A stretch of 27,620 nucleotides of DNA from a virus. Numbering within the stretch: the stretch's first letter is position 1; every line of letters starts with the position of its first letter. The notes beneath the pieces were generated by a model, which saw nothing but the letters and a program-made list of their open reading frames with translations, searched no databases and was not told the origin of the DNA. This document shows, one piece after another, positions 18,139-27,620 of the stretch. The translations under genes and the position numbers were made by a program. The stretch lies in the IMG/VR virus record IMGVR_UViG_3300046484_000120. One strand, written 5' to 3'.

Positions 18139-18209
18139 AATGTTTGACGATCTACTATATAGCCTGACCACCACACGCGAGCCGCTAGCGGCGGCGTGTA
18201 GGAATAGTT

Positions 18210-19208: not shown

Positions 19209-19279
19209 GCCCATGTAGTATAATGACATTACATTTCCTTGGTAAGGAAAAAAATCTGGTTTGATTCCAGCCTTGGGCT
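19209..19279 (+). tRNA. degenerate tRNA-Thr(GGU)-like element (possible pseudo-tRNA)
   Basis: Acceptor GCCCATG/CTTGGGC (6/7 pairs); perfect anticodon arm TTTCC-TTGGTAA-GGAAA; T loop TTTGATT (C56 replaced); D loop lacks GG. Overlaps the annotated TTG start of the HNH gene. Confidence 0.3.
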
Positions 19280-19968
19280 CTAATAGTAGTTCGATTCAGA
19301 ATTCAGCTGATATATGCCAACGCATGAGAGCTGGATTAACATACGAAGAAGCCGGTAAACTTGGGGCAATTGCTTACGCCAAAACAGCAGCTACTCTAAA
19401 GCAACAAAGAGTAGATAATTGGAACAATAATCCTAAGCTTTGTAAGGCATGTAGTAGCGCAATTCCATACGAGAAGCGTCAGAATAATTTCTGCAGCCAC
19501 AAATGTTCGGCAGCATTTAATAACAAGGGAATTAGAAGAAATGGTAACGCACCAATAAGCTGCCTCAACTGCGCAACTGAAACTCACAACCCAAAGTTTT
19601 GCTCTTCTAATTGTGCGCTTGAATGGAATTGGAAAGAGGCAAAGCAGCATTTGATAGACACTGGAGTCGATGAATCTTGTGCTAATAAAATTGGTAAAAG
19701 ATATCTGATAGAATTGCACGGTAGATGCCAGCAGTGCTTGTCATCTGAGTGGCAAGGAAAAGCAATCCCGTTAGTTCTAGATCATATCAACGGAAACCCA
19801 TATGATAACTCATTACCAAATCTCAGGGTAATATGTCCTAATTGCGACGCTCAAACCCCAACCTTTGCAGGAAGGAATAGAGGCAATGGTAGGTTTGAGA
19901 GAGCGAAGCGTTATAAGTTTGAGAAAGATACATTTTGTGATCTAAACAGATCACAATGGAAACATTAA
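19261..19968 (+). CDS. HNH endonuclease (homing-endonuclease-like)
   Basis: C-terminal HNH motif LVLDHINGNPYDNSLPNLRVICPNCDAQ plus multiple CxxC zinc-knuckle pairs; the true start may be the ATG at about 19324. Confidence 0.6.
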   Translation: MIPALGSNSSSIQNSADICQRMRAGLTYEEAGKLGAIAYAKTAATLKQQRVDNWNNNPKLCKACSSAIPYEKRQNNFCSHKCSAAFNNKGIRRNGNAPISCLNCATETHNPKFCSSNCALEWNWKEAKQHLIDTGVDESCANKIGKRYLIELHGRCQQCLSSEWQGKAIPLVLDHINGNPYDNSLPNLRVICPNCDAQTPTFAGRNRGNGRFERAKRYKFEKDTFCDLNRSQWKH

Positions 19969-20633
19969 TTTGCATAAACCCGCATAGAAGTATGGTTTCC
20001 AAAATTTCTATCGTCGGGGTTGATGATAGTGTATGTCCCGCAGATCTAGTTGATATTTCACAGACCTTTCAGTTTGTTGAGTGGGGCGTTAATCTATGCC
20101 CTGAACAAGAACAGAGGCCTGGACACCCCTCATCCGAATGGCTTGAAGAACTACTACCTTGCGCTGAAGATCTCCGATTGCGCGGAATCCTGCACGGCCG
20201 CTGGGAAAATGATGTGCTTGAAGGTGCTCCATCGCTAAAGGAGGAACGTCCAGATATCTGGGCAGCTTTTAGATGGTTGCAAGTTGACATCAGGAAAGAT
20301 CCAAAGAAGATATTAACATCACTGCAACATTACCCAGATAAGATTATTCTATATACAAATCTAGAGCCAACATTTTCATCTAGGATTCTATTACCAAGAA
20401 ATAAGATATTTACATGTCTTGATTATTGTGGATACGATTTACTTGAGTCTGACCTTGATTGGTTGTGCCAAGAAACGAAGAAGTCATTTTGGGTAAGCAT
20501 CGAGGGATTTAGATCTGATGACGAGATTACCATGGACCTCTCTAGGGTAGTGAAGTTTTTGAATAGGGCAGAAGATTTTGTCACCCATGATAGTTTGGTG
20601 AAATCTCTGCGTCATAAGGGTTATCGAATATGA
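19956..20633 (+). CDS. hypothetical protein (225 aa)
   Basis: Track ORF, ATGA-coupled to the downstream HD-domain gene. Confidence 0.45.
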   Translation: METLICINPHRSMVSKISIVGVDDSVCPADLVDISQTFQFVEWGVNLCPEQEQRPGHPSSEWLEELLPCAEDLRLRGILHGRWENDVLEGAPSLKEERPDIWAAFRWLQVDIRKDPKKILTSLQHYPDKIILYTNLEPTFSSRILLPRNKIFTCLDYCGYDLLESDLDWLCQETKKSFWVSIEGFRSDDEITMDLSRVVKFLNRAEDFVTHDSLVKSLRHKGYRI

Positions 20634-21505
20634 TCCTGAACCACATCAAGCAAATCGCACATTCCAACTACTCCGAAGAGATTCGGCATGTAACGAAGGA
20701 AGAGGTAGCCGCCCTAAGTTCACTTGACCTATCAATGCTTCACTCAATCATGATTGGGCCGCATGTAAGTTTGGCGTTAGCGGTACTTCAGCGTATTGGT
20801 TTCTTTGAAGATCTCATCCCGGAGATTCAGGAAGGGCTTGACCTCAAGAGTTCGAAGCACTTCAAAGAAATCTGGCCGCATACGATTCAGGTAGTTGGAC
20901 AAACTCCGCCGGTTATCAACATTCGCTGGGCGGCACTGTTTCACGATCTGGGTAAGGCTAAGGCATTCGATATCAAGAACAACAAGGTTACATTCCATAA
21001 CCACGAACATATCAGCGCATACATCTTCGATCAGTTTGCAAAGCGTACTGGGATTTTCAGTAACGGACAGCGAAGATCTATCCGATTCCTTGTAGCCAAT
21101 TTGGGTTATGTTGAAGCGTATGATAGCTCTTGGACTGATACCGCCGTACGTAGGTTTGATAAGGAAGTTAGTATTTTTATTGATGACCTCTTGACTTTAT
21201 CCGAGGCTGATATTACAACTAGCAAACCGGAAAACAGAAGGAGGATCCTTCGCAGGATTCAAGAGCTGAGAGACCGTATTGCAGATATACGAGAAAAAGA
21301 CTCCAAGCAACGCCCGCTTCCAAAGGGATTGGGAAATGCTATCTCTGACAACCTAGGAATTCCGTTAGGGCCTAGAATTGGGCAGCTGATGAAAGAATTA
21401 GAGGGAAAGGTTGAGATAGGAGAAATATCGGCAAATGAAGATATCACATACTATATTGAACACCTAAGAAAGTCCCAAGTCGAGATTGCTAATACGCCAG
21501 CATAA
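20630..21505 (+). CDS. HD-domain phosphohydrolase resembling the C-terminal HD domain of class II CCA-adding enzymes / poly(A) polymerases
   Basis: H (HTIQV) ... AALFHDLGKA ... FHNHEHISA pattern, as in the HD domain of bacterial Cca (HxxxV ... LAALLHDIGK ... FHGHE). Confidence 0.5.
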   Translation: MILNHIKQIAHSNYSEEIRHVTKEEVAALSSLDLSMLHSIMIGPHVSLALAVLQRIGFFEDLIPEIQEGLDLKSSKHFKEIWPHTIQVVGQTPPVINIRWAALFHDLGKAKAFDIKNNKVTFHNHEHISAYIFDQFAKRTGIFSNGQRRSIRFLVANLGYVEAYDSSWTDTAVRRFDKEVSIFIDDLLTLSEADITTSKPENRRRILRRIQELRDRIADIREKDSKQRPLPKGLGNAISDNLGIPLGPRIGQLMKELEGKVEIGEISANEDITYYIEHLRKSQVEIANTPA

Positions 21506-24952: not shown

Positions 24953-25120
24953 GTGCCCAGACATATTCAAGAAAATCAATTATTATTAGCTAAAGAGAAA
25001 GATGTAGATAGGTTAGCTCAATATTTAGGTATTGATACAACAGGTTTATCAAAAGAAGATATAGCAAGTATTGTTGCTAGAAAAATTCAATTCTATACTG
25101 AGCCTGTTAATTACTATTGA
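24953..25120 (+). CDS. possible small ORF (55 aa, GTG start)
   Basis: Hand-found protein-like frame ...LAKEKDVDRLAQYLGIDTTGLSKEDIASIVARKIQFYTEPVNYY between the VWA gene and the next ORF. Confidence 0.25.
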   Translation: MPRHIQENQLLLAKEKDVDRLAQYLGIDTTGLSKEDIASIVARKIQFYTEPVNYY

Positions 25121-25142
25121 TGGAAAGACAAGCCAATTGGCG

Positions 25143-25511
25143 ATGGCATCAATTTCGAAAATTGACGAGCGCAAGCCTTGGGGATTCGAATTCCTCTCCT
25201 ACCGCAGAATGAGTAGATACACAGAAATTGCTAAGCGTCTCCAAAGCGGAGAAACTGTCACGTATAAAGAGTTCGGTAATTCAATGTTACCAAAGATGAA
25301 AAGTGGCGTGAAGGTAAGTGTCCGCCCCTGTAAATTAGAAGATTGTAATGTTGGTGATATTGTCCTATCTAAAGTACATGGAGCCCATTATTTGCACTAT
25401 GTCAAGGCTGTAGCCTCTGATGGTAAGGTTCAGATTGGAAATGCCCATGGACATATTAATGGATGGACAAGAACTGTCTTTGGTAAATTAGACTCCTTTG
25501 AAAATCCATAG
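25143..25511 (+). CDS. hypothetical protein
   Basis: Track ORF 25071..25511, trimmed to the ATG at 25143 (MASISKIDE...) to avoid overlap with the upstream small ORF. Confidence 0.4.
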   Translation: MASISKIDERKPWGFEFLSYRRMSRYTEIAKRLQSGETVTYKEFGNSMLPKMKSGVKVSVRPCKLEDCNVGDIVLSKVHGAHYLHYVKAVASDGKVQIGNAHGHINGWTRTVFGKLDSFENP

Positions 25512-25610
25512 TCGAGAAACGCGAAGTTCACGGCTATAAATTCAGCTAATAATTAAGAATAGATTTAATACCAAGATGCTTTACATAGGTAAAGTAAACC
25601 ACATCGGTTC

Positions 25611-25643
25611 AGCCCCGCCGCCTTAGTTGGCCGTGGGGCTTTT
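25611..25643 (+). terminator. rho-independent terminator candidate
   Basis: GC-rich imperfect hairpin AGCCCCGCCGCC...GGCCGTGGGGCT followed by TTTT. Confidence 0.45.
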
Positions 25644-25735
25644 GGGGTAGGTGCTCAATACTCAGATGGTACGAGAGCCACACCTGGATCCATTAGGCAG
25701 CGGTGACCATGACGCAGGGATAGACCGAATTCGAT

Positions 25736-26028
25736 GACAAGCGGATATTACAGCTAGTCTGGCATTGGAAAGACAATTGACAGCTCTGAGAAAGATCAGA
25801 GATCGAAGGTAAGCGGATTGCAGCTCCCTGGAATCTGGGAAGACAGATGACGGCCGGAAAGACAGCAAAGTCGATGAGTAAAGCGGACATGTATAAGCAG
25901 CTTCCCGACAATTCGGATAGACGATTGACAGCTGGAATTAGACAGCAAATCTCGATGATAAGCGGAGCAAATTTATACAGCTACAGACAGCGGGAAAGAC
26001 AGCTGACGGCGGGAACAGACCGCATTAT
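25736..26028. repeat. degenerate tandem repeat array (~4 units of 70-80 bp)
   Basis: Units begin with AAGCGGA at 25738, 25811, 25881 and 25960. Recurring sub-motifs are GAAAGACAG, TTGACAGCT(C/G)G, GACGGC(C)GG(G)AA and GACAGCAAA(G/T)(C)TCGATGA. Several motifs resemble the D-arm region of the two downstream tRNA-Ser genes (GGCGACGGAAC / ACAGCTGGCGATGGAAT). Confidence 0.5.
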
Positions 26029-26113
26029 GGAGAGTCAATCCGATTGGCGACGGAACCTGCTTGGAAAGTAGACGAGCGTAACAGCCTTGTGAGTTCGAAT
26101 CTCACACTCTCCG
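26029..26113 (+). tRNA. tRNA-Ser (anticodon GGA), type II
   Basis: Acceptor GGAGAGT/ACTCTCC perfect; D arm TCCG-ATTGGCGA-CGGA; anticodon arm CCTGC-TTGGAAA-GTAGA; ~16-nt variable arm; T arm GTGAG-TTCGAAT-CTCAC; discriminator G (serine-type). Confidence 0.65.
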
Positions 26114-26118
26114 CAAAG

Positions 26119-26565
26119 ATGAATGTTAACCAAAAAGGCGTGGTTGGTTTGGTTAAGGTAATATCCGATTTAGTAAGTAGAGGATATGAAGTATTCACGC
26201 CAATTTCTGATTTTTGCCCAGTTGATATTATTGTGGCAGATAGTAAAATGAACCTTAGGAGGATACAGGTAAAATACCGTGAACATGACAACAGGAATAA
26301 GAATGCAATAGTTGTACAACTTGACTCAATAGTAAATGGGAAAAGAGTTCCAGTTGATGTTTCGCTAATTGATGGGTGGGCAATATATTTCCCTGAAACT
26401 AATGAAATTTACTACGTTCCCAAAAGTGAAGTGCAGGGCAGGAGTATTTGGCTATGCATTAGGGAGTATAAATTAAGAAGAAACAAATTAGCAAGTAAGT
26501 TTCTTGATCCTGATAGAATTTTTGGAGAGGCAATCCAACAGCTGGCGATGGAATCTGGTTGCTAA
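26119..26565 (+). CDS. PD-(D/E)xK nuclease resembling archaeal Holliday-junction resolvase Hjc
   Basis: Track ORF 26044..26565 trimmed to the ATG at 26119. KGVVGLVKVISDLVSRGYEVFTPISDFCPVDIIVADSKMNLRRIQVKY...GWAIYFP parallels the Hjc pattern (KGxxxERELxxLLExxGFAVVRSAGSKKVDLVAG...IEVK...GW). The 3' end overlaps the first ~40 nt of tRNA-Ser(GCU). Confidence 0.5.
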   Translation: MNVNQKGVVGLVKVISDLVSRGYEVFTPISDFCPVDIIVADSKMNLRRIQVKYREHDNRNKNAIVVQLDSIVNGKRVPVDVSLIDGWAIYFPETNEIYYVPKSEVQGRSIWLCIREYKLRRNKLASKFLDPDRIFGEAIQQLAMESGC

Positions 26566-26613
26566 CCAGACGAGTTCGAAAGGGCCTTGCGAGTTCGACC
26601 CTCGCCCTCTCCG
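26524..26613 (+). tRNA. tRNA-Ser (anticodon GCU), type II
   Basis: Acceptor GGAGAGG/CCTCTCC perfect; D arm TCCA-ACAGCTGGCGA-TGGA; anticodon arm TCTGG-TTGCTAA-CCAGA; ~18-nt variable arm; T arm GCGAG-TTCGACC-CTCGC; discriminator G. Confidence 0.65.
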
Positions 26614-26627
26614 CAATATGAGTACCT

Positions 26628-27128
26628 ATGAAAAAAGATACCTTCTACGATCAATATCCACTTGTATTTCCCACACGAGAACCTGAACAAGGTTTTCATT
26701 GTGGCAAGGGATGGTATCAACTTCTGGATTGCCTATTCGAAGTAATCCAAAAACACCTTGAGAAGCTTGCAGAGCCGCCTCCGTTCCGCATTACTTACAT
26801 CAAAGAGAAGTATGGCACGGTGCGCATCGGCTACGAGCACGCCACAGACTACATCAAGGAAACCCTCATCCAAGCCGAAGAGATGAGCGGACACATTTGC
26901 GAAACATGCGGCGAGTATGGCAAGCTTCGTGACTCCGCGCTTTGGATCAAGGTTCGCTGCGATGATTGCGAAGAGAAACATTTCGCATATCAAAACGCAC
27001 CATTGTCTCCAGAGTCTCAAGCGGCGCTGGATGAGGGGCTACGTAGCGCCAAGGCTGACATCGAAGCTGGGAAGCCCCCGATTGATCTCGGGAGCTTCGC
27101 TCAGTACGCTGATGACGATGAAGAGTAG
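26628..27128 (+). CDS. hypothetical protein with CxxC...CxxC pair and acidic tail
   Basis: Track ORF; CETCGEYGKL ... CDDCEEKH; GC-richer than its surroundings. Confidence 0.5.
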   Translation: MKKDTFYDQYPLVFPTREPEQGFHCGKGWYQLLDCLFEVIQKHLEKLAEPPPFRITYIKEKYGTVRIGYEHATDYIKETLIQAEEMSGHICETCGEYGKLRDSALWIKVRCDDCEEKHFAYQNAPLSPESQAALDEGLRSAKADIEAGKPPIDLGSFAQYADDDEE

Positions 27129-27137
27129 GTGTTACTC

Positions 27138-27596
27138 TTATAGTATCACCATAGTCTCTCCGCTCGGTGCAACAAACCAATCTTTCGTCAGCTTGTCTCG
27201 AAAGATTAACCAATCAGTAGATAAGATCTTATCATCTACAATTTCGCACCTAAGCCTTTCTTGAATTCGCTTTAAGTTCTTATAATATCTCTGCTGATTG
27301 TTTCCGTAAAAATTACCTAGCACATATGCGTGCTTATCTGTCCATAGGTGCCATGACCCAAAACAAGCGGCCACGTCACCCTTTTCTTTTCGGAATTTTC
27401 TTGTCGGAATTGGATCGCCTTCTTTGACCGTTTTGCGAAATTCTTCTAGAAAGCTAGGATAACGATCTAGAATTTGTTCATTTGTCAGGTTTATAGATGG
27501 GAATCCTGTGAATAAACAAGACATCAAGCTGCCATCTTCCCATATAGCCCTATCATGCTTGAAAATCTCAACGTCATACTTACCACTTGAGAACAT
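27138..27596 (-). CDS. hypothetical protein (152 aa)
   Basis: Track ORF, convergent with the previous gene. Confidence 0.45.
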   Translation of the reverse strand: MFSSGKYDVEIFKHDRAIWEDGSLMSCLFTGFPSINLTNEQILDRYPSFLEEFRKTVKEGDPIPTRKFRKEKGDVAACFGSWHLWTDKHAYVLGNFYGNNQQRYYKNLKRIQERLRCEIVDDKILSTDWLIFRDKLTKDWFVAPSGETMVIL

Positions 27597-27620
27597 AGGA
27601 TAGACCCGAATATGGGCGCT

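What the first reader, a model, noticed from the sequence alone, without database searches (positions are those of the whole stretch)
25736..26613. tRNA-Ser / Hjc-like nuclease / tRNA-Ser cassette, preceded by decayed tandem repeats that look like tRNA-Ser 5' fragments
Two serine tRNAs (GGA and GCU anticodons) share a near-identical 5' start (GGAGAG(T/G)CAATCC) and 3' end (CTCTCCGCA). They bracket a 148-aa ORF with an Hjc/PD-(D/E)xK resolvase-like signature (GYEVFTPISD...PVDIIVAD...RIQVK). The ORF runs into the 5' half of the second tRNA. Immediately upstream, four degenerate 70-80 bp tandem units carry motifs that echo the D-arm region of these tRNAs (GACGGCGGGAAC and ACAGCTGGAAT versus GGCGACGGAAC and ACAGCTGGCGATGGAAT). 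This looks like repeated duplication, integration and decay at a tRNA-Ser locus, with a structure-specific nuclease as the selfish or enabling component. The putative catalytic Glu of the E-V-K motif is Gln here (QVK), so the protein may bind rather than cut.
Basis: partly seen in the sequence, partly recalled or inferred. Interest (0 to 1): 0.65.

Follow-up and report, generated by a model that had tools for sequence, protein, structure and literature searches.

The report
Homing nuclease cassette beside hairpin array
A selfish DNA-cutting gene of a known family sits between two serine tRNA genes of a large phage, having brought its own copy of the second tRNA, and the "decayed repeats" next to it are nine small RNA hairpins of a widespread phage motif that has no Rfam match.

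Summary
Both serine tRNAs (GGA, GCU), the 148-aa nuclease ORF that runs 42 nt into the second tRNA, and four tandem 70-79 nt units are all present.

The nuclease is not Hjc. It belongs to Pfam PF11645, the I-Ssp6803I homing-endonuclease family (E 5e-18). Its best structural match is 2OST. Here it is free-standing.

All 19 intact homologue loci and one frameshifted remnant lie directly upstream of a tRNA-Ser(GCU) gene (ACU in one). The ORF usually has no stop of its own. In 9 of 17 loci it ends on the UAA formed by anticodon base 36 plus A37 and A38.

Nine related phage contigs have the empty site: tRNA-Ser(GGA), a roughly 10-nt spacer, then tRNA-Ser(GCU). A tenth carries an unrelated HNH/EndoVII-type nuclease at the same spot. 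In the window, the flanks are 91-94% identical to the closest relative, but tRNA-Ser(GCU) is only 67% identical. The nuclease and this tRNA therefore arrived as one block.

Gln in QVK is invariant across 36 homologues, so it is not decay.

The upstream units resemble tRNAs no better than chance. They are nine hairpins with covarying stems and a conserved GAAAGA loop. The twin-hairpin version occurs in 24 distinct viral contigs, often upstream of tRNAs, and has no Rfam match. Its function is unknown.

The parts
25612..25643 (+). Terminator-like hairpin (GCCCCGC...GTGGGGC followed by TTTT) after ORF 25071-25511. It precedes the hairpin array.
   Evidence: Read from the sequence. It is conserved in L037, L044, L006 and L050 with compensatory changes. 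The simple terminator scan does not flag it because the loop exceeds 8 nt.
25708..26028 (+). Array of 4.5 tandem units. U1 is 25731-25802, U2 25803-25870, U3 25871-25951 and U4 25952-26028. Each unit holds box A (TCGATGA.AAGCGGA), a CAGCT string and two short hairpins.
   Evidence: the repeat finder D1/D5. Unit-to-unit z 5-10. Motif count 4 against 0.07 expected. Unit alignment A8. An nhmmer unit profile hits only this place in the window. The array is 83.5% identical to L037.
25764..25777 (+). Hairpin 1a: ATTG [GAAAGA] CAAT
25784..25801 (+). Hairpin 1b: CTCTGA [GAAAGA] TCAGAG
   Evidence: The loop-closing pair is A-T here and G-C in L037 and L044, a compensatory change.
25833..25848 (+). Hairpin 2a: ATCTG [GGAAGA] CAGAT
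25853..25866 (+). Hairpin 2b: GCCG [GAAAGA] CAGC, with 3 of 4 pairs. L044 has GTGA/TCAC, with 4 of 4 pairs.
25909..25927 (+). Hairpin 3a: CAATT-C [GGATAGA] C-GATTG
   Evidence: The orthologues CAACT/GGTTG (L044) and CAATC/GATTG (L006) keep the pairing.
25931..25946 (+). Hairpin 3b: GCTG [GAATTAGA] CAGC
25988..26005 (+). Hairpin 4a: CAGCGG [GAAAGA] CAGCTG, with 5 of 6 pairs
26009..26023 (+). Hairpin 4b: GCGG [GAACAGA] CCGC. It ends 5 nt before the tRNA.
26029..26113 (+). tRNA-Ser(GGA), class II, with no encoded CCA. This is the resident gene of the lineage.
   Evidence: cmscan 33.6 bits. Cloverleaf minimum-free-energy fold. 94% identical to L037, with a compensatory T-stem change GTGAG/CTCAC to GCGAG/CTCGC.
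26116..26612 (+). Block that differs from the empty-site relatives: nuclease gene plus tRNA-Ser(GCU). It replaces their roughly 10-nt spacer plus their own tRNA-Ser(GCU).
   Evidence: Three-way alignment A6. Segment identities to L037 are 94% (tRNA-Ser GGA), 67% (tRNA-Ser GCU) and 91% (downstream ORF).
26119..26565 (+). Free-standing PD-(D/E)XK homing-endonuclease gene of the I-Ssp6803I family, 148 aa. The ATG lies 3 nt after the upstream tRNA's ...GCA. The last 14 codons and the stop lie inside tRNA-Ser(GCU).
   Evidence: PF11645 E 5e-18. PHROG 5018. AlphaFold2 model pLDDT 84.6. Foldseek top hit 2OST, E 4.6e-9, TM 0.71. D36, Q50 and K52 are invariant.
26524..26612 (+). tRNA-Ser(GCU), class II, with no encoded CCA. 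This allele came in with the nuclease gene. The anticodon is at 26561-26563.
   Evidence: cmscan. blastn to phage tRNA-Ser genes. Intact stems by inspection and fold. Only 67% identical to the L037 allele.
26628..27128 (+). Conserved downstream neighbour, a 166-aa protein with weak zinc-ribbon-like hits. It was used as the anchor to find empty-site relatives.

Best explanation
The locus holds two separate things.

(1) Nuclease cassette.
- A free-standing homing-endonuclease gene of the I-Ssp6803I / PF11645 PD-(D/E)XK family sits in the short spacer between two tRNA-Ser genes of a large phage's tRNA array.
- This clade of the family is bound to the 5' edge of tRNA-Ser(GCU) genes in phages.
- Inferred mechanism: during co-infection the enzyme cuts the nuclease-free allele in or next to tRNA-Ser(GCU). 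Repair then copies the nuclease gene together with the donor's tRNA-Ser(GCU) into the recipient. This explains why the window's tRNA-Ser(GCU) is foreign while both flanks are native.
- The gene has neither a leader nor a stop codon of its own. It starts 3 nt after the upstream tRNA and reads into the downstream tRNA, ending on the UAA made by anticodon base 36 plus A37 and A38.
- Inferred consequence: full-length protein can only be made from precursor RNA that RNase P has not yet cut at the tRNA 5' end. Expression would therefore be tied to, and probably limited by, tRNA processing.

(2) Hairpin array.
- The upstream 'decayed repeats' are nine short hairpins, each with a 4-6 bp stem of free but complementary sequence and a conserved GAAAGA-type loop. 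They are arranged as pairs 19-22 nt apart, one pair per 70-79 nt unit.
- They predate the nuclease, because nuclease-free relatives also carry them.
- They are an expanded copy of a twin-hairpin motif found in many unrelated phages.
- The most likely role is a cis-acting element of the transcript leader, recognised through its loops by a protein or by RNA polymerase. That role is inferred, not shown.
For: Family:
- PF11645 scores 65.9 bits against a cut-off of 26.1.
- The top PDB fold match is 2OST, I-Ssp6803I, E 4.6e-9 and TM 0.71 over the full length.
- PF11645 is the ssp6803i family according to PMC3424549.

Linkage to tRNA-Ser(GCU):
- In 17 of 17 viral loci a tRNA-Ser(GCU/ACU) gene follows the nuclease gene directly. 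The ORF runs into the tRNA in 16 of 17. The stop lies on the anticodon-loop UAA in 9 of 17.
- The tRNA also follows directly in L031, L042, L043 and the frameshifted L034.
- 14 of the 26 database homologues end in Cys at the last aligned position, as expected from UGC-UAA in the anticodon loop.

Mobility:
- Empty sites occur in L037, L006, L039, L046/47 and L048/49/50.
- An unrelated endonuclease VII/HNH-type ORF occupies the same spacer in L044 (PHROG 1035, E 2.4e-14).
- Identity to L037 is 94% for tRNA-Ser(GGA), 67% for tRNA-Ser(GCU) and 91% for the downstream ORF.
- Nuclease and tRNA co-diverge: Mantel r 0.48, reached by 1 of 5000 permutations.
- A decayed copy exists.

Precedent:
- The GIY-YIG endonuclease SegB is associated with phage tRNA genes (PMC13096335).
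- Stand-alone PDDEXK_5 genes are reported in jumbo phages (PMC12880540).

Hairpins:
- Within the lineage, 80% of cells pair against 62 +/- 3 in shuffles (0 of 500 reach it). The covariation score is 0.50 against 0.20.
- Across unrelated contigs, 98.3% of cells pair against 71 +/- 3 (0 of 500). Seven of 8 pairs show compensatory changes. Slid-partner controls give 20-58%.
- A pattern that fixes only the loops and the linker returns 24 distinct viral loci. Both stems pair fully in 20 of them, and 17 different stem-1 sequences occur.
- G-U pairs occur only when the strand of the tRNAs is read.
- A same-strand tRNA lies within 430 nt downstream in 6 of 24 loci, against a 4.7% background (p 7e-4).
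Against: - No cleavage activity, target site or homing event has been observed. The position of the cut is unknown.
- The window's tRNA-Ser(GCU) is still closest to its relatives' empty-site alleles (67-71%), not to any sampled nuclease-linked tRNA (at most 61%). The donor is therefore unsampled. Fast divergence after insertion cannot be excluded.
- I could not verify from a held paper whether I-Ssp6803I itself carries Gln at the position of Q50.
- The link between tRNA processing and translation is pure inference.
- For the hairpins, the fold energy of the whole array is not better than shuffles (z -0.65).
- The stems are only 4-6 bp long.
- The hairpin register was chosen by best pairing.
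- No binding partner has been identified.
- In pAEv1818 the motif lies in one early operon only, and the next ORF is not arginine-rich.
Confidence: 0.75

Rival explanations
1. First reader's model. The locus records repeated duplication, integration and decay of tRNA-Ser genes. The tandem units are dead tRNA-Ser 5' halves, and an Hjc-like structure-specific nuclease, possibly binding-only, drives or enables the process.
For: - The units are roughly tRNA-sized at 70-79 nt.
- TGGAATCTGG is shared between U2 and tRNA-Ser(GCU).
- GACAGCTG..CGG.AAC in U4 resembles the D-loop of the L006 tRNA-Ser(GCU).
- SegB-type endonucleases can drive tandem amplification next to tRNAs (PMC13096335).
Against: - Array-to-tRNA alignment scores are at chance level and no higher than for non-Ser tRNAs.
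- The Rfam tRNA model finds nothing in the array at E up to 10.
- The units are conserved at 83% in relatives without the nuclease.
- They consist of covarying hairpins that also occur in phages with no tRNA-Ser nearby.
- The nuclease's best match is I-Ssp6803I, not Hjc.
- Q50 is invariant.
Confidence: 0.05
2. The nuclease is no longer, or not only, selfish. It is kept because it serves the phage. It might promote amplification or exchange of tRNA genes under pressure from tRNA-targeting defences, as SegB does. Alternatively it might act on the tRNA-Ser precursor RNA.
For: - The strict, ancient linkage to one tRNA isoacceptor holds down to about 40% protein identity.
- The ORF is physically fused to the tRNA.
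- SegB is a precedent.
- tRNA splicing endonucleases share the fold and appear as weak Foldseek hits (3ajv, E 0.027).
- tRNA-Ser alleles at this locus are unusually polymorphic.
Against: - The gene is absent from nine of the ten closest relatives sampled, which otherwise keep the locus.
- A frameshifted copy exists.
- A different nuclease family can occupy the same site.
- These are all signs of a dispensable, invasive gene.
- No tandem tRNA amplification is seen in the window.
Confidence: 0.15
3. The hairpin array acts in trans as a decoy or sponge RNA. It would carry many copies of one protein-binding hairpin that titrate a host RNA-binding protein or toxin. CsrB/RsmZ do this for CsrA, and pseudo-ToxI repeats do it for the ToxN toxin.
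For: - Nine copies are present here against two in most phages. Copy number varies between relatives: 9 hairpins in the window, L037 and L044, about 5 in L006 and 2 in L050.
- GGA is present at 8 of 9 loops.
- The 19-nt spacing suits a dimeric binder (my own knowledge of CsrA dual-site binding).
- Phage-encoded tandem-repeat antitoxin mimics are known (my own knowledge; type III systems are reviewed in PMC3401426).
Against: - There is no Rfam hit to CsrB, Rsm or ToxI families.
- The first G of GGA is paired rather than central in the loop.
- The unit length of 70-79 nt differs from the 34-45 nt of type III antitoxins.
- In other phages the motif is a single pair inside leaders, which suits a cis role better.
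Confidence: 0.2
4. The repeats act as double-stranded DNA, as iterons of an origin, a packaging site or an operator array for a DNA-binding protein.
For: - The repeats are short, regularly spaced and contain inverted repeats. Lambda origin iterons look like this (my own knowledge).
- The array lies in a non-coding gap.
Against: - The centre of each inverted repeat is conserved and the arms are free to vary while staying complementary. This is the opposite of what dimeric DNA binders select.
- G-T 'pairs' appear on one strand only.
- The motif always has the orientation of the downstream genes or tRNAs.
Confidence: 0.1

Closest known systems
I-Ssp6803I (PDB 2OST), the PD-(D/E)XK homing endonuclease of the Synechocystis tRNA-fMet group I intron; Pfam PF11645 (PDDEXK_5)
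   Same: Same Pfam family and the same fold over the full length. About the same size (148 aa). It is likewise tied to one tRNA gene, whose stem-loops provide pseudo-palindromic DNA.
   Different: Here the gene is free-standing with no intron. It lies outside the tRNA at its 5' edge rather than in the anticodon loop. It is in a phage, and the tRNA is Ser(GCU) rather than fMet. Sequence identity to 2OST is only 18%, and HMM searches of the PDB do not reach it.
SegB and other free-standing homing endonucleases in phage tRNA clusters (T4/T6 SegB, GIY-YIG)
   Same: A free-standing endonuclease gene between phage tRNA genes. Flanking tRNA sequence is co-converted. Presence/absence varies between relatives (PMC13096335).
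   Different: The fold is unrelated (GIY-YIG against PD-(D/E)XK). SegB shows no preference for a tRNA isotype. This clade is bound to tRNA-Ser(GCU), and its ORF reads into the tRNA.
Stand-alone PDDEXK_5 genes of jumbo gut ('Jug') phages
   Same: The same Pfam family, counted as stand-alone homing endonucleases in huge phage genomes (PMC12880540).
   Different: The passage I searched in that paper (a term search for PDDEXK_5) mentions no tRNA-Ser linkage and no ORF/tRNA overlap.
Hjc archaeal Holliday-junction resolvase
   Same: Shares the PD-(D/E)XK core. It appears among the Foldseek hits (E 2e-4 and weaker, TM 0.43-0.52).
   Different: No Hjc Pfam match. The motif is QxK rather than ExK. The genetic behaviour is that of a homing endonuclease, not a resolvase.
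Lambda nut boxB hairpins and HK022 put RNAs (cis-acting antitermination elements in early leaders)
   Same: Short hairpins with purine-rich loops. Lambda boxB loops are GAAAA and GAAGA (my own knowledge). In pAEv1818 and a Serratia prophage the motif lies just after an early promoter next to the CI-like repressor. put RNA also consists of two stem-loops (PMC9378689).
   Different: The loops have six bases rather than five. The hairpins always come in pairs 19 nt apart, joined by a (T/G)GAC linker. No boxA or N-like protein was identified. put RNAs are about 70 nt with long, bulged stems. The motif occurs in one early operon only in pAEv1818. Function is untested.

Membership tests
PF11645 / I-Ssp6803I-type PD-(D/E)XK homing endonucleases | Sequence matches the family profile above the curated cut-off | tested here: met
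   65.9 bits against a cut-off of 26.1, E 5e-18, profile positions 1-127 of 138
PF11645 / I-Ssp6803I-type PD-(D/E)XK homing endonucleases | Fold of I-Ssp6803I | tested here: met
   AlphaFold2 model pLDDT 84.6. 2OST chains are the top four Foldseek PDB hits, E 4.6e-9, TM 0.71.
PF11645 / I-Ssp6803I-type PD-(D/E)XK homing endonucleases | Conserved catalytic D...(D/E)xK-type residues | tested here: inconclusive
   D36, Q50 and K52 are invariant and D31 nearly so in 36 homologues. Whether I-Ssp6803I carries Gln at the Q50 position could not be checked, because PMC1864971 is not held.
PF11645 / I-Ssp6803I-type PD-(D/E)XK homing endonucleases | Encoded inside a self-splicing intron of the target gene | tested here: not met
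   Complete tRNAs lie on both sides, and no Rfam intron hit was found. The gene is free-standing.
Homing endonuclease genes in general | Presence/absence polymorphism at one fixed site among otherwise collinear relatives | tested here: met
   Empty sites in L037, L006, L039, L046/47 and L048-50. Only the window is occupied. L044 is occupied by a different nuclease.
Homing endonuclease genes in general | Co-conversion of flanking markers | tested here: met
   tRNA-Ser(GCU) is 67% identical to L037, while the flanks are 91-94% identical.
Homing endonuclease genes in general | Site-specific cleavage of the allele that lacks the gene | not testable with these tools
   Needs purified protein and DNA substrates.
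Hjc Holliday-junction resolvases | Family-level sequence match and the E...D...ExK catalytic set | tested here: not met
   Only PF11645 is matched in Pfam. The motif is QxK. Structural similarity is weaker than to 2OST.
Class II tRNA-Ser genes | Cloverleaf with long variable arm, Ser anticodon, and a match to tRNA models | tested here: met
   26029-26113 scores 33.6 bits (gathering score 29), anticodon GGA. 26524-26612 has anticodon GCT with all four stems and a GAAA-capped variable arm. It scores best to the tRNA-Sec model (30.4 bits, below that model's cut-off), and its tRNA-model score is not shown. Both match annotated phage tRNA-Ser genes. ARAGORN calls neither.
tRNA-derived repeats or pseudogenes | Similarity of the units to a tRNA above chance | tested here: not met
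   z 0-1.7, no better than for non-Ser tRNAs. No tRNA-model hit in 25700-26028 at E up to 10.
Lambda nut (boxA + boxB, N protein) and HK022 put antitermination elements | Position in the leader just downstream of an early promoter | tested here: met
   True in the Serratia prophage L066 and in Aeromonas phage pAEv1818. It cannot be judged in the window, where no promoter was found.
Lambda nut (boxA + boxB, N protein) and HK022 put antitermination elements | boxA plus an N-like arginine-rich protein, or roughly 70-nt long bulged stems (put) | tested here: not met
   The first ORF after the motif in pAEv1818 is not arginine-rich. The stems are 4-6 bp and the pair spans about 34 nt, against about 70 nt for put. 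boxA was not searched for systematically.
CsrB/RsmZ-type sponge RNAs; type III (ToxI-like) antitoxin repeats | Match to the Rfam families, GGA centred in the loops, or 34-45 nt repeats next to a toxin gene | tested here: not met
   No Rfam hit. The first G of GGA is base-paired. Units are 70-79 nt. The array is followed by tRNA-Ser(GGA) and then the nuclease gene, not by a recognised toxin gene.

The most novel reading that the evidence does not exclude
The twin GAAAGA hairpin is consensus (U/G)GAC-N-[NNNG]-GAAAGA-[CNNN], occurring twice 19 nt apart. It may be an undescribed, widespread phage RNA element that acts in cis on the transcript it leads. Possible roles are keeping RNA polymerase elongating through untranslated, highly structured tRNA arrays, or docking a processing or regulatory protein. 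In this phage lineage it has been multiplied to nine hairpins in front of the tRNA-Ser genes. Separately, the nuclease's use of the tRNA anticodon loop as its stop codon may make tRNA 5' processing and nuclease translation mutually exclusive. That would be a built-in throttle on a selfish gene.
Probability: 0.4. Interest if true: 0.7.

Novelty: new variant of a known kind. Interest (0 to 1): 0.55.

Why it matters
- The nuclease extends the I-Ssp6803I family beyond an intron-borne curiosity of cyanobacterial tRNA-fMet. It shows a free-standing phage lineage with an equally tight but different tRNA partnership, to the 5' edge of tRNA-Ser(GCU).
- This gives a clean natural system for testing target choice. 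Occupied alleles, empty alleles and alleles occupied by a different nuclease are all available as sequences.
- The ORF that borrows its last 13 codons and its stop from a tRNA is an unusually compact gene arrangement. It yields a testable prediction about expression control by RNase P.
- tRNA-Ser alleles at this site are swapped between phages. This matters for understanding how phage tRNA sets evolve under tRNA-targeting defences.
- The hairpin motif is the more open result. It is a strongly covarying structure with no Rfam match, present in at least 24 distinct viral contigs and enriched upstream of tRNAs. Its function is unknown.

Tried and rejected
- Tandem Repeats Finder finds nothing at the locus. 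The units are too diverged and differ by indels.
- ARAGORN misses both Ser tRNAs. The Rfam gathering-mode scan of the whole window also misses them. Only the permissive local scan finds them.
- Exact look-up of the 148-aa protein fails, because the public gene call starts at an upstream TTG and gives 173 aa.
- Sequence searches of the PDB, with the single protein and with a 36-sequence profile, do not reach 2OST. The link needed a structure model.
- Folding the whole array gives no signal on either strand (z -0.65 and +0.22). RNAalifold on three orthologues gives almost no covariation term. The structure became clear only at the level of single hairpins.
- Simple promoter and terminator scans of 25000-27620 are at background level.
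- Alignment A9 of all the hairpins was out of register for the 7-nt loops. For A10 and A12 I therefore removed one loop base from six rows (x1-x5 and win_U4) to keep the arms in register. The arms themselves were not edited.
- A unit-level profile finds no further copies in the window or in other loci, apart from weak single units in L048-50.
- The motif does not precede the other tRNA clusters of the window.
- L040, L041 and L045 gave no tRNA, nuclease or array at the corresponding place.
- Zhao et al. 2007 (PMC1864971) is not held, so the I-Ssp6803I catalytic residues could not be read.
- Reading the array as a protein repeat was rejected. The 19-nt hairpin period and the 70/78-nt unit periods break any reading frame.
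Full report
**1. What is in the sequence**

The window looks like part of a large phage.
- It carries 13 tRNA genes called by ARAGORN, all on the + strand.
- It also carries an HNH endonuclease, a transglycosylase and a tRNA-nucleotidyltransferase-like HD protein.
- Its relatives are IMG/VR viral contigs.
- The public contigs that carry the same nuclease gene are 106-118 kb long.
- One homologue of the neighbouring gene lies on a 463-kb contig.

ARAGORN and the gathering-mode Rfam scan call no tRNA at 26000-26650. A permissive Rfam scan of 25450-26700 changes that.
- The tRNA model hits 26029-26113 at 33.6 bits, above the gathering score of 29.
- The tRNA-Sec model, another long-variable-arm tRNA model, hits 26524-26612 at 30.4 bits.

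Read by hand, the first has anticodon loop TTGGAAA (GGA) and the second TTGCTAA (GCT). Both have 7-bp acceptor stems, 3-bp D stems, canonical T arms and a long variable region. The first folds as a cloverleaf in its minimum-free-energy structure. blastn against phage genomes matches each to annotated tRNA-Ser genes at about 79%. Neither gene encodes CCA.

The ORF 26119-26565 encodes 148 aa.
- Its ATG lies 3 nt after the ...GCA that follows the first tRNA.
- Its last 42 nt, stop codon included, lie inside the second tRNA.
- Its TAA (26563-26565) is made from the last anticodon base plus A37 and A38.

**2. The nuclease**

Pfam gives a single hit, PF11645 (PDDEXK_5), E 5e-18, across almost the whole profile. 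PHROGs files the protein under a family of unknown function. PF11645 is the I-Ssp6803I family with structure 2OST (PMC3424549). It is also the family found in group I introns of cyanobacterial tRNA-fMet genes (PMC13011429).

Sequence searches of the PDB do not reach 2OST. An AlphaFold2 model built on 26 homologues does (pLDDT 84.6).
- The four 2OST chains are the top Foldseek hits, E 4.6e-9 and TM 0.71 over the full length.
- The nuclease domain of SPARDA systems comes next, and archaeal Hjc only after that (E 2e-4 and weaker, TM 0.43-0.52).

D36, Q50 and K52 are invariant in an alignment of 36 homologues. The Gln in QVK is thus a fixed trait of this lineage, not a lesion. I could not check the equivalent residue of I-Ssp6803I because the paper is not held.

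**3. A fixed partnership with tRNA-Ser(GCU)**

Back-translated searches of IMG/VR gave 17 non-redundant loci with homologues at 34-49% identity.
- In every one, a tRNA-Ser(GCU) gene (ACU in L001) follows the nuclease gene directly.
- In 16 of 17 the ORF runs into the tRNA.
- In 9 of 17 it stops on exactly the same anticodon-loop UAA as in the window.

Fourteen of the 26 database homologues end in ...C at the aligned last position. That is the signature of UGC-UAA in the anticodon loop.

The closest relatives show the same arrangement: L042 at 63%, L043 at 61% and L031 at 59% protein identity. L034-36 carry a frameshifted remnant that still lies upstream of a tRNA-Ser(GCU).

The upstream neighbour is not fixed. 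It can be tRNA-Val, Leu, Asn, Ala, Glu, Thr, Ser(UGA) or a protein gene. In the window's own subclade, however, it is always another tRNA-Ser: GGA, CGA, CGA and UGA.

Nuclease and tRNA identities are correlated across loci (Mantel r 0.48, reached by 1 of 5000 permutations). This fits joint descent, but it could also reflect phage phylogeny.

**4. Occupied, empty and differently occupied sites**

I used the downstream 166-aa ORF as an anchor and recovered ten related contigs.
- L037 (83% protein identity), L006 and L039 have tRNA-Ser(GGA), a spacer of about 10 nt, tRNA-Ser(GCU) and then the anchor gene, with no nuclease.
- L046/47 and L048-50 also lack the nuclease.
- L044 (84%) has a 170-aa ORF in exactly the same spacer. 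It matches PHROG 1035 'endonuclease VII' (E 2.4e-14) and an HNH PHROG, an unrelated nuclease fold. Both of its flanking Ser tRNAs differ from those of the window.

Segment identities between the window and L037 are as follows (alignment A6):

| Segment | Identity to L037 |
|---|---|
| Hairpin array | 83.5% |
| tRNA-Ser(GGA) | 94% |
| tRNA-Ser(GCU) | 67% |
| First 300 nt of the anchor gene | 91% |

The segment that differs therefore runs from just after the first tRNA to the 3' end of the second, about 26116-26612. The nuclease gene and its tRNA-Ser(GCU) replaced the resident spacer and tRNA as one block.

This is the pattern expected from double-strand-break repair with co-conversion. It is known for free-standing endonucleases of T-even phages, including SegB in the tRNA cluster (PMC13096335). 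The cleavage step itself is inferred.

One caution applies. The window's tRNA-Ser(GCU) is still closest to the empty-site alleles of its relatives (67-71%), not to any sampled nuclease-linked tRNA. The donor is therefore unsampled, and rapid divergence after insertion is not excluded.

**5. How the gene is likely expressed (inference)**

The gene has no room for a promoter, leader or terminator, so it must be read from the tRNA precursor transcript.
- 3' processing of the upstream CCA-less tRNA would leave an mRNA with a leader of only a few bases.
- RNase P cleavage at the 5' end of tRNA-Ser(GCU) would remove the last 13 sense codons and the stop codon.
- Full-length protein would then come only from unprocessed precursor.
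- Processed mRNA would be a non-stop message.

None of this was tested.

**6. The 'decayed tandem repeats'**

The repeats are real.
- Four units of 72, 68, 81 and 77 nt follow a partial unit.
- Pairwise z is 5-10.
- A 19-mer occurs 4 times against 0.07 expected.

Their similarity to the Ser tRNAs is at chance level. It is no higher than to the window's Ala, Thr, Gly, Arg or Met tRNAs. The tRNA model finds nothing there.

The array is conserved in relatives that never had this nuclease. L037 and L044 have four units, L006 has two, and L048-50 have one. It is therefore neither debris of the insertion nor tRNA-derived on present evidence.

Looking inside the units resolves them. Each holds two hairpins 19-22 nt apart. 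Each hairpin has a stem of 4-6 bp and a loop of GAAAGA or a near variant (GGAAGA, GATAGA, GAAYAGA, GAATTAGA). The loops are conserved. The stems differ between copies but stay complementary.
- On 21 hairpins from this lineage, 80% of cells pair against 62 +/- 3 in shuffles (0 of 500).
- The covariation score is 0.50 against 0.20 (0 of 500).
- Slid-partner controls give 20-55%.
- Five of those rows had one loop base removed to keep the arms in register.

**7. The same twin hairpin in unrelated phages**

A pattern taken from unit 4 returned 15 viral loci, about 10 of which are clearly the same two-hairpin structure.

On 15 pairs, mostly from unrelated contigs:
- 98.3% of cells pair against 71 +/- 3 in shuffles (0 of 500).
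- Seven of 8 pairs show compensatory changes.
- The covariation score is 0.71 against 0.17.
- Slid-partner controls give 20-58%.

A second pattern fixed only the two loops and the GAC linker and left all non-closing stem positions free. It returned 30 loci, 24 of them distinct.
- Both stems pair fully in 20 of the 24.
- 17 different stem-1 sequences occur.
- G-U pairs appear on the strand that matches the downstream genes.

Conserved loops, free but complementary stems, one-strand wobble pairs and a period that is not a multiple of three together argue for an RNA structure. They argue against a protein repeat or a duplex DNA operator.

Rfam 15 has no match at E up to 10 in the window or up to 1 in five other loci.

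The motif is essentially viral. A stricter pattern, which fixes the second stem as GCTG/CAGC, gave only two hits in 185,579 bacterial and archaeal genomes.

**8. Where the motif sits**

- In 6 of 24 distinct loci a same-strand tRNA starts within 430 nt downstream, against a 4.7% background in the same loci (p 7e-4).
- In L061 the pair ends 4 nt before a tRNA-Thr.
- In the window the last hairpin ends 5 nt before tRNA-Ser(GGA).
- In a Serratia prophage, and in the lambdoid Aeromonas phage pAEv1818, the pair lies about 120-150 nt downstream of a TTGACA/TAATAT-type promoter. That promoter is next to the CI-like repressor gene and heads the leftward early operon, which contains recE/recT-like genes. 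This is the position of nutL in lambda.
- The motif does not precede the other tRNA clusters of the window.
- pAEv1818 has it in one early operon only, and the next ORF is not N-like.
- HK022 put RNAs are twice as long, with bulged stems.

My best reading is a cis-acting leader element recognised through its loops, perhaps by a dimeric protein given the fixed 19-nt spacing. I do not file it as a nut or put site. A trans-acting sponge role for the nine-copy version remains possible.

**9. Verdict**

It is wrong about the nuclease family, the meaning of QVK and the origin of the repeats.

The nuclease is a new variant of a known kind: an I-Ssp6803I-family homing endonuclease that is free-standing, phage-borne, bound to tRNA-Ser(GCU) and terminated by the tRNA's anticodon loop.

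Stand-alone PDDEXK_5 genes in jumbo phages (PMC12880540) and endonucleases in phage tRNA clusters are already on record. That keeps the surprise moderate.

The twin GAAAGA hairpin is the less expected result, and its function remains open.

Noticed in passing
window 10094-10184 (+): A 91-nt tRNA with anticodon CTA and a long variable arm. ARAGORN labels it tRNA-Pyl, and it scores 53.4 bits on the Rfam tRNA model. It looks like an amber suppressor. Whether the phage reads TAG as sense was not examined.
   Followed up: no
window 19336-19968 (+): An HNH endonuclease gene (PHROG 10822, E 2e-21) lies directly after tRNA-Thr(GGT) at 19209-19280. It is a second homing-endonuclease-like gene in the same tRNA array.
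   Followed up: partly
window 4929-7067 (+): A 712-aa protein with major-vault-protein shoulder and Vault_3 domains (PF11978, E 9e-28). This is unusual in a phage.
   Followed up: no
window 20630-21505 (+): An HD-domain protein matches the PHROG for tRNA nucleotidyltransferase. This fits the Ser tRNA genes here having no encoded CCA.
   Followed up: no
L044 1879-2391: An endonuclease VII/HNH-type ORF of 170 aa occupies the same tRNA-Ser(GGA)/tRNA-Ser(GCU) spacer as the window's PD-(D/E)XK gene. Both of its flanking tRNAs are also divergent. The spacer is a hot spot for two unrelated nuclease families.
   Followed up: yes
L034/L035/L036 4001-4492: A frameshifted remnant of the PDDEXK_5 gene (109-aa call) lies next to a tRNA-Ser(GCU) that ARAGORN does not call. 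The contig is 222 kb.
   Followed up: partly
L042 100-218 and L043 about 1213-1325: The same spacer element of about 115 nt follows tRNA-Ser(GGA) in one contig and the nuclease-linked tRNA-Ser(GCU) in the other. This suggests recombination between Ser-tRNA paralogues through their shared 3' ends.
   Followed up: no
L046 2412-2499 and L044 2399-2488: A second allele class of tRNA-Ser(GCU) occurs at this locus (TATTGGGTATTAGGAAAA..., with encoded CCA). It is found with the HNH gene in L044 and without any nuclease in L046. With the window's allele, at least three allele classes exist among close relatives.
   Followed up: partly
L066 7319-7400 (-); L067 3128-3166; L068 about 18140-18180 (-): The twin GAAAGA hairpin lies in the leader of the leftward early operon. 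It is downstream of a sigma-70-like promoter and next to the CI-like repressor. This holds in a Serratia prophage and in Aeromonas phage pAEv1818, and it is a nutL-like position.
   Followed up: partly
L054 about 4250-4340 (-): Four consecutive hairpins of the same motif (GGTG/CACC, GTTG/CAAC, GCTG/CAGC, GCCG/CGGC) at a 19-20-nt period. They lie directly upstream of an ATG in an unrelated viral contig.
   Followed up: no
L031 3350-3958: About 600 nt without ORFs, containing several GGTTCGAATCC-type T-arm strings that ARAGORN does not call as tRNAs. It lies just upstream of tRNA-Ser(UGA).
   Followed up: no
L004 2163-2280: A cobalamin riboswitch (94 bits) in a short viral contig that also carries the nuclease/tRNA-Ser module.
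   Followed up: no
L048 1-1422: An IS200/IS605-type Y1 transposase and a TnpB (Cas12f1-like_TNB) gene lie next to the locus in a related phage contig.
   Followed up: no
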